From a virus: 64,000 bases of DNA. The position numbers were made by a program, and so were the translations under genes. Positions 6,802-58,185 of this stretch are shown in pieces (position 1 is the stretch's first letter; each line of letters starts with the position of its first letter). The DNA lies in IMG/VR virus record IMGVR_UViG_3300020202_000063, positions 34,579 through 98,578 of that record, one strand, 5' to 3'. The notes beneath the pieces are model-generated. The model was given only the letters and a program-made list of their open reading frames with translations. It ran no database searches and had not been told where the DNA came from.

Positions 6802-7239
6802 ATGGCTTCTCTAGTCTATAGCAAATTTATCCAAAACGTCTTCAATGGTACGATTTCTCAGGTGGATTTTGATACCAACACCTTCAAGATGTTGTTAGTT
6901 ACATCTTCTTACACACCAGATAGGGATGCACACGATTTTCGTAATGATATAACAAATGAAGTGGCAAACGGTAACGGATATACAACTGGCGGTGCCACTT
7001 TTGGCGCGATTACTGTAACACTTGACACTACCAATGACCGTATTGATATTACATTCCCGACAATTTCTTGGGCGAGTGCAACGTTTACTGCGCGCGCAGG
7101 TGTCATATACAAGGATGCGGGCGGGGCCGCAAGCGACCCCCTTATTGCGTACGTTGATTTTGGTACGGACGTAACCGCTACCGCTGGTACTTTCACAGTC
7201 ACGTTCTCTGGTCCATTACGCTTCTCTAACGCAGCCTAA
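6802..7239 (+). CDS. Virion structural protein (tail/fibre-associated)
   Basis: NEV..GNGYTTGG and PLIAYVDFGTD..GTFTVTF pattern common in phage structural genes; GTGTAA motif at 6767-6772. Confidence 0.65.
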   Translation: MASLVYSKFIQNVFNGTISQVDFDTNTFKMLLVTSSYTPDRDAHDFRNDITNEVANGNGYTTGGATFGAITVTLDTTNDRIDITFPTISWASATFTARAGVIYKDAGGAASDPLIAYVDFGTDVTATAGTFTVTFSGPLRFSNAA

Positions 7240-7251
7240 TTAGGATAACAT

Positions 7252-7590
7252 ATGGCTGATGCCCATAAAAATTTCAGTATCAGCGCTGTAACTAATAATC
7301 CGGGAACCGGTGGAACCTCACTCACTATAACGAGCGGCCATACGACCCGATTTCCCGACGCGCCTTTTAATGCTACTGTTTGTCCGGCCAGTACAACTCC
7401 GGACCCAAGCAATTCTGAAATTGTCCGGGTGATAGCCGTAGATGCCGGAACAAATACGTTCACAATTCAGCGCGCCCAAGAAAATACAACGGCCCGAAAT
7501 ATCGTGGCAACCGATTCAATATTTGCGTCGGTTACGGTTAAAACTTTAACCGATGTTGAAACAGTAGCAAATCTAATGTTATTAATCTAA
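7252..7590 (+). CDS. Virion structural protein
   Basis: EIVRV..TFTIQRAQENTTAR motif seen in tail-fibre N-terminal modules. Confidence 0.6.
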   Translation: MADAHKNFSISAVTNNPGTGGTSLTITSGHTTRFPDAPFNATVCPASTTPDPSNSEIVRVIAVDAGTNTFTIQRAQENTTARNIVATDSIFASVTVKTLTDVETVANLMLLI

Positions 7591-7593
7591 TCC

Positions 7594-8016
7594 ATGCCTA
7601 AACAAACTGCACTTTATCTCCCTGCTAACGTCAATAATTCGGGCGTAAATTTTGTCAATTCCGATGGCGTAGCATTCAAGAATCTTTACACTGCCGGAAA
7701 TAATGATTCGGACGTTTATTCTATCATTGCCGCGAGTAATGATTCTTCAGTTCGCGCCTTTCAATTAGCAATTCAACGTTCATCCATAAACTATCCACTT
7801 GGGACCATTTCAATTCCTACTGGTGCGGGCGGCACAAGCGCCGCTGTCCCTTCTGTCGATATGATAAATTCTACTTCCGTGCCGGGTTTACCCGTAAATG
7901 GCGCTGGTAAGCGATATATCTCCCTTCGTTCGGGTGAAAATCTTGTTGTAGCGCCAATGGTGGCATTCACTGCGGGTGCAACTGGTTGGGTATCAGCCTT
8001 TGGTCAAGATTATTAA
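7594..8016 (+). CDS. Virion structural protein
   Basis: 140 aa beta-rich ORF in the tail cluster. Confidence 0.55.
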   Translation: MPKQTALYLPANVNNSGVNFVNSDGVAFKNLYTAGNNDSDVYSIIAASNDSSVRAFQLAIQRSSINYPLGTISIPTGAGGTSAAVPSVDMINSTSVPGLPVNGAGKRYISLRSGENLVVAPMVAFTAGATGWVSAFGQDY

Positions 8017-8021
8017 AATTT

Positions 8022-9143
8022 ATGCGCGTTTTAACGTCCCCTCAATTCAGGCCCGCGCCTGTTACTCAAACTGCGTTGGACGATGTACGCAAGTCTTCAC
8101 GTATTAAAATTTCGCAGGCGGCGCATGGTTTAGTCGCAGAAGATGTAGTTTATAGTAATGCTGGTATTTGGGCCAAAGCAAAAGCGGATGCATTAACCAC
8201 ATCTTCGGTTGTTGGAGTTGTTGAGTCTGTTCTCGATATCAATACCGCCATAATCGTTATAAACGGTGAATTTACATTCACTACCGCCAAAACATCCAGC
8301 AGTATTTATTATTTGTCGGATACTACAGCGGGGCTACTTACCCTTACACCGCCAACAGCTACAACTTCATATGTTGTTCAAGTGATAATTACGACGAGTA
8401 CGGGCGCGGCATTTGTACAGGTTGGGGAACCAATGGCGTTGGCAAAATTGGCGATTACCGATATTGACAAGATGGATGCCACAACAGTAAATGGAGACCC
8501 AAATTCTAAAGTCGCTATTGGTTCGCATTTTTTAACGACTGAACCATTTACAACGATAACAGCCAATACAGGTACAGCTACTATTGCTGCGGCAGCGAGC
8601 GCACAAGGTATATTAACATTAAGTACCGAATCTAATTCAGCGGGTACAGCCGGTATTTATATTGGTCAGACTACTGGCACCCTAAATCAAATCGGATTGG
8701 GGCCAATAACAATTAAGGGAAGAATTAATCTTCCTGCGCTTTCAACAGCCAGCGAAGAATACATCTTTCGCTTTGGACTTGGTAACAACGTTACTGCTGC
8801 ACCTACCATCGGTGTATTTTTTGAATATGATAGAGCATCAAATACGCTATGGCGATTGAGGAGTGGTAACGGTTCAGTTACAACGGTAAATGCTAGCGGA
8901 ACTGGTTCAACTGTAGTACAAGCCACTTGGACAAAACTGCGTATTGAAATAAATGCTGCCGGTACAGCCGCAGAATTTTTTGTTAATGATGTTTCGATGG
9001 GTGTCGCAACAGGAACAATGCCAGTAAGCCCCGGTAACACATGCGGTCTTTTCGTTTCTATTATTAAAAGTGCGGGTACAACTGCTCGTACAGCCCAAGT
9101 TGATTATGCTTGGATGAAATTAGATATAACAAATCCAATGTAA
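8022..9143 (+). CDS. Tail fibre-like protein
   Basis: T/G/A-rich; YYLSDTTAGLLT motif; C-terminal concanavalin-like domain; start moved to ATG 8022. Confidence 0.6.
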   Translation: MRVLTSPQFRPAPVTQTALDDVRKSSRIKISQAAHGLVAEDVVYSNAGIWAKAKADALTTSSVVGVVESVLDINTAIIVINGEFTFTTAKTSSSIYYLSDTTAGLLTLTPPTATTSYVVQVIITTSTGAAFVQVGEPMALAKLAITDIDKMDATTVNGDPNSKVAIGSHFLTTEPFTTITANTGTATIAAAASAQGILTLSTESNSAGTAGIYIGQTTGTLNQIGLGPITIKGRINLPALSTASEEYIFRFGLGNNVTAAPTIGVFFEYDRASNTLWRLRSGNGSVTTVNASGTGSTVVQATWTKLRIEINAAGTAAEFFVNDVSMGVATGTMPVSPGNTCGLFVSIIKSAGTTARTAQVDYAWMKLDITNPM

Positions 9144-22144: not shown

Positions 22145-22870
22145 ATGGCAACTCCCCTTCTTTTACTCCCACATCATTATGGGCCGGACACGCAGGATGT
22201 TTGGCGAGAAGCATTAAGGAGGAAATGGCGCATCGAAAGAATTGGTTCCGCCAAGATTGACATTGAGCCGAAGTGTTTGGGGCACAGTCCGATAAAGTAT
22301 TATGGGAATATTTTACATCAGGAGCAGTGCGGCGGCGCACTACCTATCAAATTTTTGCCAATTGATATTACTAATCTTCCTCGGTTAAGAGAGTTTACGG
22401 GACGTTACATAGAACTGTTGCGGGCGCGCGACATTCCCCAGCCTATCCGCGAGACCTTGGTTTTTCTGAAATGTCCGGGAGTGAAGTGGATTGAGAGTCG
22501 AATTTACAAACAGGGAGAATATTTTGATTGCAAGCCCGATGACTTTATTTATCGGCAGGAACCAATCGAAATTATAGATGAGATAAGGTGCTTTGTAGTT
22601 GATGGGGTAATACAAGCCGCGAGTTGGTATCGCATTAATAAAGAATTCATACCCGAAGAATTGATTGATATCGGAATATTTAAACATTTACAAAGTCTTA
22701 CTACTGGTATTTGGGCGGCGGCTAAATGGCCCCGAGGTATTGTATTTGACTTTGGCCGTTTGAGGAACGGGCGCTGGATATTCATCGAATGTAATGAGAG
22801 TTGGGCGTCTGGTTTGTACGGTTGTAATCCTTCGGGGGTTTTTGAAAGTATAATCGCTAGCCAAGAATAA
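22145..22870 (+). CDS. ATP-grasp domain protein (DUF4343/R2K-like)
   Basis: EIRCFVVDG, FDFGRL..W.FIECN..WASGLYG. Confidence 0.75.
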   Translation: MATPLLLLPHHYGPDTQDVWREALRRKWRIERIGSAKIDIEPKCLGHSPIKYYGNILHQEQCGGALPIKFLPIDITNLPRLREFTGRYIELLRARDIPQPIRETLVFLKCPGVKWIESRIYKQGEYFDCKPDDFIYRQEPIEIIDEIRCFVVDGVIQAASWYRINKEFIPEELIDIGIFKHLQSLTTGIWAAAKWPRGIVFDFGRLRNGRWIFIECNESWASGLYGCNPSGVFESIIASQE

Positions 22871-35708: not shown

Positions 35709-36032
35709 TCTAGGGGCCGAATCGCACGGCCCTCACTTTTAATTTAGTACGTTCGCCGCTTGGTAGTGTCACACCCTGCGTATCGAACGGGGTTCTCGTC
35801 TCACTTCTTAATTCCTTGCTGCGTCCAGCCCGGTCAGTTCTAGAAACTAATCCCGCTTTGACGTAAAACCCAATTTCACTTTTCGTTTATATCCGGTAGC
35901 ATCTAATTGGAACTTCTCAGCCTAAAACGAAATGGTTTATCACCATCTCGCTCTGGTCCCACTTCAAACGTTTCCGTTTGATTATTGCCGTCAGGCAAAG
36001 GGATTGCGGCTCCATCCCGATTAACCACACCG
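35709..36032 (-). ncRNA. Candidate ~325-nt structured ncRNA with tRNA-like 3' domain
   Basis: No ORF; consecutive hairpins including GNRA loop; terminal GGGCCG-TGCGATT-CGGCCC T-arm stacked on TCTAG/CTAGA. Confidence 0.65.
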
Positions 36033-36057
36033 AAAATTTGAAAGAACAAAAATTAAT

Positions 36058-38613: not shown

Positions 38614-39006
38614 ATGAAGTGTGTGAAGTGCAATCAGGATTTAATAGGAAAACAGACTAAGTTTTGTTCCGCTAAATGTAAAGCCAGTCAGCAAAACAAT
38701 TGTTATCCTAAACAGAAGATTCGAGCGTTCAAAAGAAAAGCAGAGGTGGTGACTCGATTAGGTGGAAAGTGCTCCGTTTGTGGTTATAACAAAAATTATG
38801 CCGTTTTAAACTTTCATCATACCGAACCTCAAAATAAACTGTTTAATTTAGACTCGCGCAAGCTATCCAATTCCTCTTGGGATAGGATAGAGTTAGAACT
38901 GCAAAAGGTAATCCTATTATGCGCCAATTGTCATATGGAAATACATCATCCCGATTCAGAAATAGTGGGCGGAGTGGGATTCGAACCCACGGTCCAAGAA
39001 TTATGA
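38614..39006 (+). CDS. HNH endonuclease
   Basis: CVKC..FCS..C zinc finger; GGKCSVCGY..FHH..LLCANCHMEIH. Confidence 0.85.
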   Translation: MKCVKCNQDLIGKQTKFCSAKCKASQQNNCYPKQKIRAFKRKAEVVTRLGGKCSVCGYNKNYAVLNFHHTEPQNKLFNLDSRKLSNSSWDRIELELQKVILLCANCHMEIHHPDSEIVGGVGFEPTVQEL

Positions 39007-39039
39007 GTTCTTCGCTTTGAACCACTAAGCTACCCGCCC
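38966..39039 (-). tRNA. tRNA with CAT anticodon (Ile2 or elongator Met); CCA not encoded
   Basis: GGGCGGG TA GCTT AGTGGTTCA AAGC G AAGAA CTCATAA TTCTT GGACC GTGGG TTCGAAT CCCAC TCCGCCC A. Confidence 0.92.
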
Positions 39040-39045
39040 AAAAGA

Positions 39046-39261
39046 TTAGGTTTTAAGTATACCCACGGTTTTGCGGATGTGCGCTATCGCATATTCCATA
39101 CAATCCAGAATCGATTTTGCGCTTTCTGGTTTCTTGATAAGCGCTTTTCGCAATTGTATTATATCGTAAACGGTAGATGGTAATGAATGACACCCACTGT
39201 AAGTATCCCGTATGCGGATAGCCTCCTCAACTATTTCATTTGCCCGTTCTAAGTGTGTCAT
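39046..39261 (-). CDS. Hypothetical protein
   Basis: 71 aa ORF between two RNA genes. Confidence 0.55.
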   Translation of the reverse strand: MTHLERANEIVEEAIRIRDTYSGCHSLPSTVYDIIQLRKALIKKPESAKSILDCMEYAIAHIRKTVGILKT

Positions 39262-39268
39262 TTAAAAT

Positions 39269-39497
39269 TGGTGGGCTGCAAGGGATTCTCACCCCTAACC
39301 TTTCGTTACCACACCAGCCACGGTGGGGGCTTTCGGCCCGATATAACGACTGCTCTGTTTCCGGTTCTGTGGTTTCACTTTCGGCTTTGGCAAAACCTAA
39401 TTGTATTTTCCACATCCGGCCCCTTCTCTACTAAATCGCTTGTATGCGCACTTAATCGCGAAGATTCGAGTTGGGTTTATCTTGAGCTAGCGCGCCC
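39269..39497 (-). ncRNA. 229-nt tRNA-scaffold RNA with large D-loop and anticodon-loop insertions
   Basis: GGGCGCGC-TA-GCTC...GAGC-AG-TCGTTA...TAACGA-AAGGTT-AGGGG-TGAGAAT-CCCTT-GCAGCCC-A-CCA. Confidence 0.8.
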
Positions 39498-39503
39498 GTA
39501 AAA

Positions 39504-39770
39504 TCAAATTGCCTTTTCCAAATCTTCAAACGTGGAACCCAACGTACCCCAATTACAGTAGGTGGCAACCCCAACTTCCGTCTTCTCATCACCACCCATC
39601 GGACCCCAAATCTGCAATATTATAACGCCTTTTGCTCCCGCCCAAAATTCGAATTGGATTTCTGGGGCATTGGGATTCTTATCCTGAACAACCCGAATGA
39701 TTTGATAATTCTTACCCAATAGGATGTCTCGCATCCGAACATAAACACGATTCTTGAATTTATCGTTCAT
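39504..39770 (-). CDS. Hypothetical protein
   Basis: ATGA-coupled ORF. Confidence 0.6.
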   Translation of the reverse strand: MNDKFKNRVYVRMRDILLGKNYQIIRVVQDKNPNAPEIQFEFWAGAKGVIILQIWGPMGGDEKTEVGVATYCNWGTLGSTFEDLEKAI

Positions 39771-45721: not shown

Positions 45722-45875
45722 GGGCGCGGTCGGTCTTCTCTACGTCCGTCATCAGTGGGCCATCGCTACTACCTTTCCGCACTTCAGTGTTGCGCGCATA
45801 ATAACCGGTTGTAGCGGCTGCAATCCACCACAACGCTTGTAACTCACAATGCTTTTGGAATTGGTCCTTGTTCAT
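45669..45875 (-). CDS. Hypothetical protein
   Basis: ATGA-coupled ORF. Confidence 0.55.
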   Translation of the reverse strand: MNKDQFQKHCELQALWWIAAATTGYYARNTEVRKGSSDGPLMTDVEKTDRALEIAQNHIRLFRESAES

Positions 45876-46102
45876 AGAGAAATCCTTTTAAGATATATTG
45901 AATCAGGATGTTCTTTTACAACCTGAATGCGGGCCGCACGATATGGATTCTCAATACGAACGTGCCACCATGCACGAAGCCATGCTAGCCAACGCCAACG
46001 ATAAGTGCCAATTGTATATTCGTATCCTTCCCAGAAGGTGCCGGGACCACCAGCACGACCTATGGCGCGAAACTTGGTTGTATTTTTATTACGAATTGTC
46101 AT
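45872..46102 (-). CDS. Hypothetical protein
   Basis: ORF packing. Confidence 0.55.
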   Translation of the reverse strand: MTIRNKNTTKFRAIGRAGGPGTFWEGYEYTIGTYRWRWLAWLRAWWHVRIENPYRAARIQVVKEHPDSIYLKRISL

Positions 46103-56903: not shown

Positions 56904-57674
56904 TTATTGCGCCACGTCAAGCACTTTCTGATATTCCAATTTCAAATAAGGGAAGTAGCAGCGTAGCAAGAGGTTATTCGCTATCTTCTCTGAGAAAGTA
57001 AAAGTGCGAGTGCGGCTTTCATATGCTGCGACAATTTCTGCATCATATTGCTTATAATCCGCTTCAAGCTGTTCGACCGAATAGCGTTCGGGTGTCGCCT
57101 TGATTTTCATCAGGTAATTATATTCGTCCGCCCCAAAATCACGGCAGTTCACAACATATATTTGATGGCGGAAAAAGTGAATACCGGTCCACAACAATCG
57201 AAGAAGGTGCGTGGCATTGCGATAACTATAACCGTAAGTGTTAAGTGATTCTTTGCGTTTGGAACCCAAGACACCGGCGCGCTCACCTTTTGCAAGACGG
57301 AATTCGCTTTGGGCATAGCCGCGCAATACATTGAACAACTTGCGACTATCGATTAGATTATGCGCTTCCGCCCTAAACAGGTTGAATTCGGGCGCGCACA
57401 ACGTAAATGAATCAGAGGATGCGAATAGCATTTCAAATGCCTCTGTATTACCTTGATGGAGTAAACGCACCCAAGCCGACAATTCCTTATAAACAATATC
57501 CTGCTGAATATTTGGATTTTGTTTACGATATTCCTCGTTCTTGGCTGTACCGATGATATGTTTGGCATCGGTGTTCATATACAAGCCGCGCACATCTATA
57601 TCCGAATTGTGTGTATTCAGATGATATAAGTGCGAGCCGCCCTTAAATTCACAAAGCTTCTTAATATTATCCAT
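56904..57674 (-). CDS. Pol-beta superfamily nucleotidyltransferase (RlaP/YcgL-like)
   Basis: GSHLY.LNT..SDIDVRG; N..E.LF; GY..SE; YGY..A.HLLRLL. Confidence 0.85.
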   Translation of the reverse strand: MDNIKKLCEFKGGSHLYHLNTHNSDIDVRGLYMNTDAKHIIGTAKNEEYRKQNPNIQQDIVYKELSAWVRLLHQGNTEAFEMLFASSDSFTLCAPEFNLFRAEAHNLIDSRKLFNVLRGYAQSEFRLAKGERAGVLGSKRKESLNTYGYSYRNATHLLRLLWTGIHFFRHQIYVVNCRDFGADEYNYLMKIKATPERYSVEQLEADYKQYDAEIVAAYESRTRTFTFSEKIANNLLLRCYFPYLKLEYQKVLDVAQ

Positions 57675-57675
57675 A

Positions 57676-58185
57676 TCAAAACATATCCTTTATTTCAATT
57701 TTCACACCCAAAATCTTCTTCGCTTGGAATACCGTTCTAGGGGTAATTCCAACATAAGGGTCAACGTGAATAAAATTGTTCCTTTGTGAATATAGCATGT
57801 CCGAATCATCATCTAAGATGATATAATTTGTATAATTGTAGTAAGGGCAACCAATCGCGGCTGGATTATCTTTCATCCAACAGAGAATTTCATTGCCGCG
57901 CACGATAGAATCGGCATCAGGTCCGCGCCGCAAGTCCTTCGTTTTATCAATTACTTCCCCTATAAAACCCTTACTAAGCAATATATCCTCAAGTTCCTGA
58001 ATAGTCCTATTAAGTCGCCAAGTAGAAGATACGACAACCTTTGCGTCGCTAGCCTGTACAATTTGATTGAGTAAAACAACACTATCTTCGTCTATATCAA
58101 TCAATCCCATCTTTTTACTTTTTGCATAAAAATGGGAGTTTAGCACTCCATCAAAATCCAAAAAAATTATAGGATTACCCTTCAT
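57676..58185 (-). CDS. HAD phosphatase (Swiss Army Knife RNA-repair-like)
   Basis: FLDFDGVLN, VVVSSTWR, RGNEI..W, YIILDDDSD. Confidence 0.85.
   Translation of the reverse strand: MKGNPIIFLDFDGVLNSHFYAKSKKMGLIDIDEDSVVLLNQIVQASDAKVVVSSTWRLNRTIQELEDILLSKGFIGEVIDKTKDLRRGPDADSIVRGNEILCWMKDNPAAIGCPYYNYTNYIILDDDSDMLYSQRNNFIHVDPYVGITPRTVFQAKKILGVKIEIKDMF

What the first reader, a model, noticed from the sequence alone, without database searches (positions are those of the whole stretch)
39269..39497. Giant tRNA-scaffold RNA: tRNA core carrying two large structured insertions
Seen (minus strand): GGGCGCGC-TA-GCTC-[~128 nt]-GAGC-AG-TCGTTA-[35 nt]-TAACGA-AAGGTT-AGGGG-TGAGAAT-CCCTT-GCAGCCC-A-CCA. The tRNA landmarks are in canonical order: U8A9, D-stem GCTC/GAGC, anticodon stem, AGGTT variable loop, 5-bp T-stem with 7-nt loop, acceptor with one internal mismatch, discriminator A, encoded CCA. 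The D-loop is replaced by a folded domain (AAGAT/ATCTT; CCGG-A-TGTGG/CCACA-GAA-CCGG enclosing GGTTT/AAGCC). The anticodon loop is replaced by two hairpins (GGGC-CGAAA-GCCC; CCAC/GTGG), so there is no decoding anticodon. Established: tmRNA lacks a D-stem, and bacterial group I tRNA introns are longer single insertions in the anticodon loop; neither fits. Inference: a stable RNase P-processed tRNA mimic that presents extra domains, e.g. a decoy for anticodon nucleases/tRNA-targeting toxins, a synthetase or ribosome binder, or a scaffold. It shares a cassette with a normal tRNA(CAT).
Basis: partly seen in the sequence, partly recalled or inferred. Interest (0 to 1): 0.9.

Follow-up and report, generated by a model that had tools for sequence, protein, structure and literature searches.

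The report
Phage tRNA-shaped RNA with two inserts
A 229-base stretch between two genes of an uncultured phage looks like a tRNA that has grown a large folded domain in its D-loop and a second one in place of its anticodon, so it probably cannot decode; it resembles the still unexplained stable RNA C of phage T4, but no relatives or expression data could be obtained to prove it is functional.

Summary
The sequence described is there, on the minus strand at 39269-39497. It fills the gap between two small genes, starting 6 nt after a stop codon and ending 7 nt before the next ATG. ARAGORN and Rfam do not recognise it.

- **tRNA-derived core, supported.** A covariance model built from the candidate alone, with both inserts skipped, picks out genuine tRNAs: the neighbouring tRNA-Met (E=7e-5), and tRNAs of an unrelated phage and of T4.
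- **Cloverleaf order alone is not significant.** The same descriptor turns up about 0.64 times per random genome of this size.
- **First-reader errors.** The acceptor stem is 6 bp with a bulged A, not "one mismatch". The proposed AAGAU/AUCUU helix has no thermodynamic support.
- **Inserts.** The 128-nt D-loop insert folds better than shuffles (z about -3). The 35-nt anticodon insert does not.
- **No anticodon.** None of 1,120 in-silico "spliced" versions is called a tRNA.
- **No homologue found** in phage, IMG/VR or metagenome searches, so covariation cannot be tested.

Best reading (about 0.5): a non-decoding, tRNA-derived structured RNA processed by tRNA-maturation enzymes, analogous to T4 RNA C. 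Rivals: a decayed, insertion-riddled tRNA relic, a 59-aa ORF, or a spliced tRNA.

Earlier notes of this scan describe similar D-loop-insert tRNA-shaped RNAs in other phages.

The parts
39269..39497 (-). Whole 229-nt tRNA-shaped element (RNA position p = 39498 - window coordinate)
   Evidence: Sequence. Fills the gap between the stop at 39504 and the ATG at 39261. GC 0.515. Single copy in the genome.
39492..39497 (-). Acceptor 5' strand GGGCGC (positions 1-6), followed by the 4-nt linker GCUA (39488-39491)
   Evidence: Pairs 1-225, 2-224, 3-223, 4-222 (probability about 1.0) and 5-220, 6-219 (0.53) with A221 bulged. Aligns to GGGCGGG of the neighbouring tRNA-Met.
39484..39487 (-). D-stem 5' strand GCUC (positions 11-14)
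   Evidence: Pairs with GAGC at positions 143-146, probability 0.91. The UAGCUCA / GAGCAG junctions align to tRNAs.
39356..39483 (-). Insert 1: 128-nt folded domain in the D-loop position (positions 15-142). Two sub-domains: positions 23-78 (39420-39475) and the 59-nt CCGG...CCGG hairpin at positions 79-137 (39361-39419).
   Evidence: Folded alone: -31.2 kcal/mol, z=-2.96. The 59-nt hairpin has z=-2.98 and the 5' sub-domain z=-1.60. Helix probabilities 0.86-1.0. No Rfam match and no repeat in the genome.
39352..39355 (-). D-stem 3' strand GAGC (positions 143-146), then AG
39303..39349 (-). Anticodon-arm position: 6-bp stem UCGUUA/UAACGA (positions 149-154 / 190-195) enclosing insert 2 (positions 155-189, window 39309-39343), which has two weak hairpins and no 7-nt anticodon loop
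   Evidence: Stem probabilities 0.55-0.87, inner hairpins about 0.35. The arm alone gives z=-0.49. No spliced form is recognised as a tRNA.
39280..39302 (-). Variable-loop segment AAGGUU (positions 196-201) and T arm AGGGG-UGAGAAU-CCCUU (positions 202-218)
   Evidence: The same GGUU-N-GGGG-UGAGAAU-CCC string occurs in a genuine phage tRNA-Lys(UUU) that scores 59.7 bits with Rfam tRNA. U at loop position 1 and A at position 5 are kept.
39269..39279 (-). Acceptor 3' strand GCAGCCC (positions 219-225), discriminator A and encoded CCA (positions 226-229)
   Evidence: Aligns to CCGCCCA of tRNA-Met. The next ATG lies 7 nt downstream.
38965..39039 (-). Normal tRNA-Met(CAT) of the same cassette, no encoded CCA. 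Likely the closest relative of the candidate's core.
   Evidence: ARAGORN. Rfam tRNA 71.3 bits. Model R1 scores 18.6 bits, E=7e-5.
39504..39770 (-). Upstream 88-aa ORF, whose stop lies 6 nt before the RNA 5' end
   Evidence: Codon score 0.32. No relative among 5.8 billion proteins except itself.
39046..39261 (-). Downstream 71-aa ORF between the RNA and tRNA-Met. It has no SD, and its stop lies 6 nt before the tRNA.

Best explanation
The element is a gene for a non-decoding, tRNA-derived structured RNA.

**Shown**
- Its ends pair like an acceptor stem, followed by A-CCA.
- Its core (U-A, D stem, anticodon stem, variable segment, T arm) is related to real tRNAs, most closely the tRNA-Met/Ile(CAU) type found next door.
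- The D-loop carries a 128-nt domain that folds well on its own.
- The anticodon loop is replaced by 35 nt without an anticodon.
- No promoter or terminator flanks it.

**Inferred**
- It is co-transcribed with the flanking small genes and tRNA-Met.
- It is cut out by the host tRNA-maturation enzymes, RNase P at G1 and 3' trimming at the CCA, through its acceptor/T-arm minihelix.
- It accumulates as a stable RNA in which the tRNA body is the chassis and the D-loop domain is the payload, as in T4 RNA C.
- Its excision would also separate the upstream and downstream cistrons.

What the payload binds is unknown.
For: - **Position.** It spans the intergenic gap exactly. This gap has the highest GC of the 16 gaps of 150 nt or more.
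- **tRNA-like core.** Model R1, built from the candidate only, finds tRNAs when its inserts are skipped:
  - tRNA-Met at 18.6 bits, E=7e-5, with the next hit at only 7.3 bits.
  - Two tRNAs of an unrelated phage that were not selected by my pattern, at E=2.6e-5 and 5e-4.
  - T4 tRNA-Thr, Pro and Ile at E about 1e-3.
- **Fold.** The unconstrained MFE reproduces the acceptor, D stem and anticodon stem. Insert 1 has z about -3.
- **T loop.** The odd UGAGAAU loop occurs in a bona fide phage tRNA-Lys.
- **Transcription signals.** No promoter or terminator flanks the element.
- **Precedent.** T4 rnaC has the same layout: imperfect acceptor, large domain at the D-arm site, hairpin, T arm. Rfam's tRNA model also misses it.
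- **Relatives.** A phage with TerL 47% identical (G009) carries several other insertion-bearing tRNA-like genes.
- **59-aa ORF.** It has no real homologue among 1.84 billion representatives.
Against: - No homologue was found, so there is no covariation or conservation evidence at all.
- The whole-molecule folding z is only -1.27.
- The acceptor and D stem disappear from the predicted ensemble when 60-nt flanks are added.
- The cloverleaf descriptor alone is matched in 65 of 150 random genomes.
- Rfam tRNA gives no hit even at E<=10.
- The bulged acceptor, the long linkers and the weak anticodon insert are also what a decaying pseudogene would look like.
- There are no expression data.
Confidence: 0.5

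Rival explanations
1. It is a decayed duplicate of the neighbouring tRNA-Met/Ile-type gene that has been broken by two insertions. This could be a by-product of the mobile-element traffic around phage tRNA genes. It would have no function of its own, or be kept only as an RNase P processing site between cistrons.
For: - The acceptor strands are nearly the same as those of tRNA-Met but no longer pair in register.
- The linkers are too long, the T loop is non-canonical and the anticodon insert is weak (z=-0.49).
- An HNH homing endonuclease gene abuts tRNA-Met on the other strand.
- A relative carries a group I intron in a tRNA gene.
- No homologue was found.
Against: - The phage genome is tightly packed, and 229 nt of junk would be expected to be lost.
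- Insert 1 folds better than shuffles (z about -3).
- GC is raised like that of the true tRNA.
- A one-base slip restores 6 acceptor pairs, and the CCA is kept.
- The insert is not a repeat in the genome.
- The same T loop works in a real tRNA.
Confidence: 0.2
2. The gap holds a small protein gene, the 59-aa ORF at 39236-39415 on the minus strand, and the RNA-like features are incidental.
For: - The ORF starts with ATG behind a GAAGGGG string and was called as a gene in the source annotation.
- Its codon score of 0.047 lies in the low range of the real small genes.
Against: - It has no true homologue among 1.84 billion representatives; the only hits are to tandem-repeat artefacts.
- It has no Pfam or PHROG match.
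- It overlaps the next gene by 26 nt in another frame.
- It covers only the 3' 147 nt of the element and does not explain the tRNA-like core.
Confidence: 0.08
3. It is an interrupted tRNA gene. Both inserts are introns that are removed to give a working tRNA, like the 'enigmatic introns' reported in Lak megaphage tRNAs.
For: - Phage tRNA genes with unexplained introns are published (PMC6784885).
- Relative G009 has tRNA-like genes with inserts and one with a group I intron.
- One register gives A-U-CGG-G, which could be a Pro anticodon loop (reading of the sequence).
Against: - None of 1,120 spliced forms is accepted by ARAGORN.
- That register needs an 8-nt variable loop and a 4-nt position-26 region.
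- The acceptor stays bulged after any splicing.
- The inserts are too short for group I introns, and nothing was found at E<=10.
- No D-loop intron is known in bacteria or phages (my own knowledge).
Confidence: 0.05
4. There is no discrete RNA. The gap is an untranslated spacer or a cis-regulatory leader of the downstream 71-aa gene, and the tRNA-like bracket is a coincidence.
For: - The descriptor is common in random sequence.
- The whole-molecule z is -1.27.
- The end pairing is lost once flanks are included.
Against: - The core similarity to tRNAs has E of 1e-4 to 1e-5 in independent targets.
- The element spans the gap exactly and has raised GC.
- By my rough estimate, the chance of a random bracket spanning one given gap end to end is about 1e-5 to 1e-4 before allowing for post-hoc choice.
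Confidence: 0.12

Closest known systems
Bacteriophage T4 RNA C (species 1 RNA, rnaC, 139 nt) and RNA D, the stable RNAs of the T4 tRNA cluster
   Same: - Encoded in a phage tRNA cassette on the same strand as the tRNAs.
- The ends pair as an imperfect acceptor stem; rnaC has two U.U mismatches and the candidate a bulged A.
- A large hairpin domain sits where the D arm should be, followed by a hairpin at the anticodon-arm site and then a T arm.
- Not detected as a tRNA by Rfam.
- Function still unknown (PMC3014915, PMC9697503).
   Different: - No sequence homology; R1 scores only 3.7 bits, on the T arm alone.
- The candidate is 90 nt longer.
- It keeps a 4-bp D stem that encloses the insert.
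- It has a second insert in the anticodon loop.
- It has a non-canonical T loop (UGAGAAU against UUCGAAU).
- It encodes its CCA.
Ordinary tRNA (Rfam RF00005), especially phage tRNA-Met/Ile(CAU) and a phage tRNA-Lys(UUU) with T loop UGAGAAU
   Same: - The acceptor ends GGGCG.G / C.GCCCA.
- The UAGCUCA and GAGCAG junctions, the AGGUU variable loop, the T arm and the ACCA.
- The candidate's own model finds tRNAs.
   Different: - 128 nt in the D loop and 35 nt in place of the anticodon loop.
- 6-bp bulged acceptor and 4-nt linker.
- Not detected by ARAGORN or by Rfam tRNA at E<=10.
'Enigmatic introns' in Lak megaphage tRNA genes (Devoto et al. 2019, PMC6784885)
   Same: Phage tRNA genes carrying unexplained insertions that are not group I introns.
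   Different: The Lak cases are single insertions that leave a recognisable tRNA with an assignable anticodon under eukaryote settings. Here no such tRNA can be restored.
tmRNA and YrlA-type Y RNAs (tRNA mimics, Rfam RF00023 and RF02553)
   Same: Non-decoding RNAs that contain a tRNA-like acceptor/T-arm module.
   Different: - No hit to either family at E<=10, and ARAGORN finds no tmRNA.
- The candidate has G3-C70, not G3.U70, and no tag reading frame.
- YrlA closes with a Ro-binding stem, not an acceptor stem with CCA.
- No Ro60/TROVE gene lies in the 98.6 kb held.

Membership tests
tRNA (RF00005 / ARAGORN) | Scores above the family threshold with a tRNA covariance model or tRNA finder | tested here: not met
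   ARAGORN finds nothing at default settings, with or without introns. Rfam tRNA gives no hit at gathering score or at E<=10.
tRNA (RF00005 / ARAGORN) | 7-bp acceptor stem, 2-nt link to the D stem | tested here: not met
   4 pairs in register, or 6 pairs with A221 bulged; the link is 4 nt.
tRNA (RF00005 / ARAGORN) | 7-nt anticodon loop with U33, directly or after removal of an insert | tested here: not met
   35 nt lie between the stem strands. None of 1,120 spliced versions is recognised.
tRNA (RF00005 / ARAGORN) | Core sequence and structure related to tRNAs (descent, not function) | tested here: met
   R1 finds tRNA-Met at E=7e-5, tRNAs of an unrelated phage at E=2.6e-5 and 5e-4, and T4 tRNAs at E about 1e-3. 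The non-tRNA background scores 7.3 bits or less.
tmRNA (RF00023) | tRNA-Ala-like domain with G3.U70, tag reading frame, pseudoknots, family score | tested here: not met
   No ARAGORN tmRNA and no Rfam hit. The pair is G3-C70, and no plausible tag frame is seen in the sequence.
tRNA gene with group I intron | A single catalytic intron of about 200 nt or more in the anticodon loop, matching RF00028 | tested here: not met
   No Intron_gpI hit at E<=10. The inserts are 128 nt (D loop) and 35 nt. The same search does detect the intron in relative G009.
T4 RNA C-type stable tRNA-like RNAs | Lies in the phage tRNA cassette, same strand, no promoter or terminator of its own | tested here: met
   230 nt upstream of tRNA-Met with one small ORF between them.
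T4 RNA C-type stable tRNA-like RNAs | Acceptor-like end pairing plus T arm, with a large domain at the D-arm site | tested here: met
   compared with the rnaC fold.
T4 RNA C-type stable tRNA-like RNAs | Sequence homology to rnaC/rnaD | tested here: not met
   R1 on the T4 locus matches only the T arm of rnaC, at 3.7 bits.
T4 RNA C-type stable tRNA-like RNAs | Accumulates as a discrete, stable, processed RNA | not testable with these tools
YrlA / Y RNA with Ro60 | RF02553 match and a Ro60 (TROVE) gene in the genome | tested here: not met
   No Rfam hit. No TROVE gene in the 98.6 kb held, though the record is only about 70% complete.

The most novel reading that the evidence does not exclude
The element is one more, independent instance of a widespread and uncatalogued class of phage RNAs. 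These RNAs use a tRNA body as a chassis, so that RNase P, 3' trimming and the CCA-adding enzyme give a stable, defined RNA. They display a large folded module from the D loop while the anticodon is abolished. In this phage the module would engage a host or phage factor of tRNA metabolism; the phage also encodes RlaP and HAD-SAK RNA-repair proteins. Excision of the RNA would at the same time punctuate the early polycistronic transcript.
Probability: 0.35. Interest if true: 0.75.

Novelty: new variant of a known kind. Interest (0 to 1): 0.55.

Why it matters
T4 RNA C and RNA D have been known for about 50 years without a function. If tRNA-shaped RNAs with D-loop domains and no anticodon recur in unrelated phages, they point to a general, unexplored way in which phages exploit the tRNA-processing and tRNA-binding machinery of the cell. 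Support for recurrence comes from this case, from the odd tRNA-like genes in its relative G009 and from earlier notes of this scan.

A natural 229-nt example with a clearly separable chassis and payload would be a useful object for RNase P and CCA-enzyme assays and for pull-downs.

On its own, however, this copy is a singleton with no comparative or expression support. Its value is as a lead, not as a demonstrated new RNA class.

Tried and rejected
**Searches for homologues, all empty**
- blastn against 50,697 phage records.
- Exact and degenerate 3'-end patterns in IMG/VR. These gave only one true tRNA-Lys, one weak tRNA-like site and chance matches.
- Both flanking small proteins in IMG/VR and the upstream one among 5.8 billion proteins (itself only).
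- Model R1 over three sets of loci: 45 IMG/VR loci around the DUF7227 neighbour, five whole records of TerL relatives, and 28 of the 52 metagenome loci.

**Tools unavailable**

**Ideas tested and dropped**
- tmRNA, YrlA, riboswitch and ribozyme families.
- A spliced tRNA.
- RNase P RNA, which I considered because of the ACAGAACCGG string. Rfam gave no hit at E<=10.
- An attP-type tRNA fragment: no integrase gene was found, and the 5' strand is present.
- A kissing contact between the D-loop insert and the anticodon insert, suggested by earlier notes on other phages. The duplex energy is -23.9 against a shuffled mean of -24.6, and 583 of 1,000 shuffles do as well.
- A repeated or mobile origin for the inserts within this genome.
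- The second 'tRNA-like' region at 35709-36048: it does not match R1 and ends in an ordinary terminator hairpin.

Full report
**What the window is.** The window is the 3' 64 kb of a 98.6-kb IMG/VR virus record that is about 70% complete. The phage is tailed and has a large terminase, RIIA, PhoH, Hsp20, a T4-type lysozyme and RNA-repair genes. Genome GC is 0.438. It has no close relative in the phage collection.

**The observation.** The element starts 6 nt after the stop of an 88-aa ORF (39504-39770). It ends 7 nt before the ATG of a 71-aa ORF (39046-39261). That ORF in turn stops 6 nt before a normal tRNA-Met(CAT) at 38965-39039. ARAGORN, Rfam at gathering score and Rfam at E<=10 all find the tRNA-Met and nothing on the candidate.

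- The acceptor is GGGC/GCCC plus two more pairs after a one-base slip (A221 bulged). This leaves a 4-nt link to the D stem.
- The AAGAU/AUCUU helix has zero probability in the ensemble.
- The hairpins in the anticodon insert are weak.

**Is it more than chance?** Three tests bear on this.
The real genome has one full match, the candidate. Random genomes have 0.64 on average, and 65 of 150 have at least one. Short stems with free spacing are cheap, so the cloverleaf order alone proves nothing. The whole-molecule folding z is -1.27.
- *Position and composition, positive.* The match spans one of only 16 gaps of 150 nt or more from end to end. That gap has the highest GC of all of them: 0.515 for the element against 0.41-0.42 for its flanks, and close to the 0.54 of the true tRNA.
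- *Covariance-model test, positive and most informative.* A model built from the candidate alone (R1) was searched with local ends so that the inserts can be skipped. It finds genuine tRNAs and little else.
  - In 8 kb of the window with filters off, the second hit after itself is the neighbouring tRNA-Met (18.6 bits, E=7e-5). The next hit has 7.3 bits.
  - In an unrelated IMG/VR phage it finds three tRNAs. Two of them were not selected by my search pattern (E=2.6e-5 and 5e-4).
  - In the T4 tRNA region its three best hits are tRNA-Thr, Pro and Ile (E about 1e-3).

The aligned columns are the acceptor ends (GGGCG.G / C.GCCCA), UAGCUCA, GAGCAG, the anticodon stem, AGGUU, the T arm and ACCA. I conclude that the frame is tRNA-derived, most like the Met/Ile(CAU) type next door.

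The odd T loop UGAGAAU is not a sign of decay. The same GGUU-N-GGGG-UGAGAAU-CCC string sits in a phage tRNA-Lys(UUU) that scores 59.7 bits with Rfam tRNA.

**The inserts.**
- Insert 1 (128 nt, 39356-39483) folds on its own to -31.2 kcal/mol (z=-2.96). Its 59-nt CCGG...CCGG hairpin gives z=-2.98, and its helices have probabilities of 0.86-1.0.
- Insert 2 with its stem is no better than shuffles (z=-0.49).
- Neither insert matches any Rfam family or is repeated in the genome.
- Complementarity between the two inserts is at chance level.

**Can it decode?** Probably not. No register gives a 7-nt loop with U33 between a canonical stem. None of 1,120 versions with the inserts trimmed to normal loop sizes is accepted by ARAGORN.

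**Protein-coding rival.**
- A 59-aa ORF (39236-39415, minus strand) was called as a gene in the source data. Its codon score of 0.047 is ambiguous.
- A full HMMER scan of 1.84 billion representatives returned only itself and two tandem-repeat artefacts.
- It has no Pfam or PHROG match and overlaps the next gene by 26 nt.

**Context.**
- No sigma-70-like promoter or intrinsic terminator flanks the element. If it is an RNA, it must be cut out of a longer transcript, as the T4 tRNAs and RNA C/D are.
- An HNH endonuclease gene lies on the other strand at 38614-39006, running into the tRNA-Met (phrog_2255, E=3e-25). This recalls segB in the T4 tRNA cluster.
- The phage also encodes RlaP and a HAD_SAK_2 phosphatase, domains named for RNA-repair systems, 17 kb away.
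- No Ro60 gene and no integrase gene are present in the part held.

**Relatives.**
- TerL relatives exist at 47-62% identity, but none holds a homologue.
- One of them, G009, carries other aberrant tRNA-like genes:
  - a 105-nt gene with about 35 extra nt in the anticodon arm;
  - a 126-nt gene (Rfam tRNA 41.7 bits) whose T loop is replaced by 62 nt;
  - a 150-nt six-arm cloverleaf (z=-3.4);
  - a tRNA gene with a group I intron.
- Insertion-bearing tRNA-shaped genes are thus a habit of this phage group, although each one is different.

**Comparison with what is known.**
- *T4 RNA C.* This is the closest published object: 139 nt, in the T4 tRNA cluster, with an imperfect acceptor, a large hairpin domain at the D-arm site, a hairpin at the anticodon-arm site and a canonical T arm. 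Rfam's tRNA model does not detect it either. Its role is still unknown (PMC3014915, PMC9697503). The candidate shares the layout but not the sequence.
- *Lak megaphage tRNA genes.* These are reported to hold 'enigmatic introns' (PMC6784885).
- *Earlier notes of this scan.* These AI notes, which I did not check, describe D-loop-rod tRNA-shaped RNAs without an anticodon in several other phages. So the scan has seen this kind of object before on other DNA. One feature claimed there, pairing between the rod tip and the anticodon module, is not supported in this copy.

**Verdict.** The most likely reading is a real, tRNA-derived, non-decoding RNA gene (about 0.5). It would be excised by the tRNA-maturation machinery, with the D-loop domain as payload and cistron punctuation as a side effect. 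A decayed, insertion-riddled tRNA copy is the main rival (about 0.2). Everything beyond the anatomy is inference: there is no homologue, no covariation and no transcript evidence. Two tools that could have supplied such evidence were unavailable.

Noticed in passing
window 38614-39006 (+): A 130-aa HNH endonuclease gene (phrog_2255, E=3.4e-25) on the opposite strand. Its 3' end runs about 40 nt into the tRNA-Met gene. It is a free-standing homing-type nuclease beside the tRNA cassette, like segB in T4.
   Followed up: partly
window 56904-58185 (-): Adjacent genes with RlaP (RNA-repair Pol-beta nucleotidyltransferase, E=3.9e-10) and HAD_SAK_2 (phosphatase of 'Swiss Army Knife' RNA repair proteins, E=2.3e-27) domains. 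An R2K ATP-grasp gene lies at about 22394-22840 (+). The phage appears to carry an RNA-repair module.
   Followed up: partly
window 35709-36051 (-) and L061:1830-1860: A non-coding stretch of about 340 nt ends in a terminator-like hairpin (35714-35732 plus a T run). It is preceded by a motif of about 25 nt (TTAATTTTTGTTCTTT...). The relative G009 carries the core TTGTTCTTT four times, three of them as TTTTTGTTCTTT, next to its tRNA-like genes. This may be a shared promoter for RNA genes. The stretch does not match model R1.
   Followed up: partly
L058:1501-1605; L061:1501-1626; L061:1863-2014; L061:2762-3064: Relative phage G009 (IMGVR_UViG_3300033072_001201) holds four aberrant tRNA-type genes: one with an insert of about 35 nt in the anticodon arm, one with 62 nt in place of the T loop, one 150-nt six-arm cloverleaf with an 11-bp anticodon-like stem, and one tRNA with a group I intron (Rfam 33 bits, below threshold).
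   Followed up: partly
L087:3675-3846: In a 95-kb complete IMG/VR phage, a weak tRNA-like element ends in the same GGGGUGAGAAUCCC T arm plus ACCA. A type-P1 twister ribozyme match overlaps its 3' end (48.5 bits, E=3e-8, below the gathering score of 67.2).
   Followed up: no
L088:11529-11603, 7175-7595, 8300-8372: An unrelated phage contig has more than 12 tRNAs, a tmRNA (127 bits) and a weak YrlA-like match (32.6 bits). It also has a tRNA-Lys(UUU) whose T loop is UGAGAAU and whose D loop lacks the GG dinucleotide, which suggests a co-varied elbow.
   Followed up: no
window 45722-46004 (-): The only other gap with GC 0.49 appears to hold an unlisted short ORF that starts ATGAACAAGGACC, rather than an RNA.
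   Followed up: no
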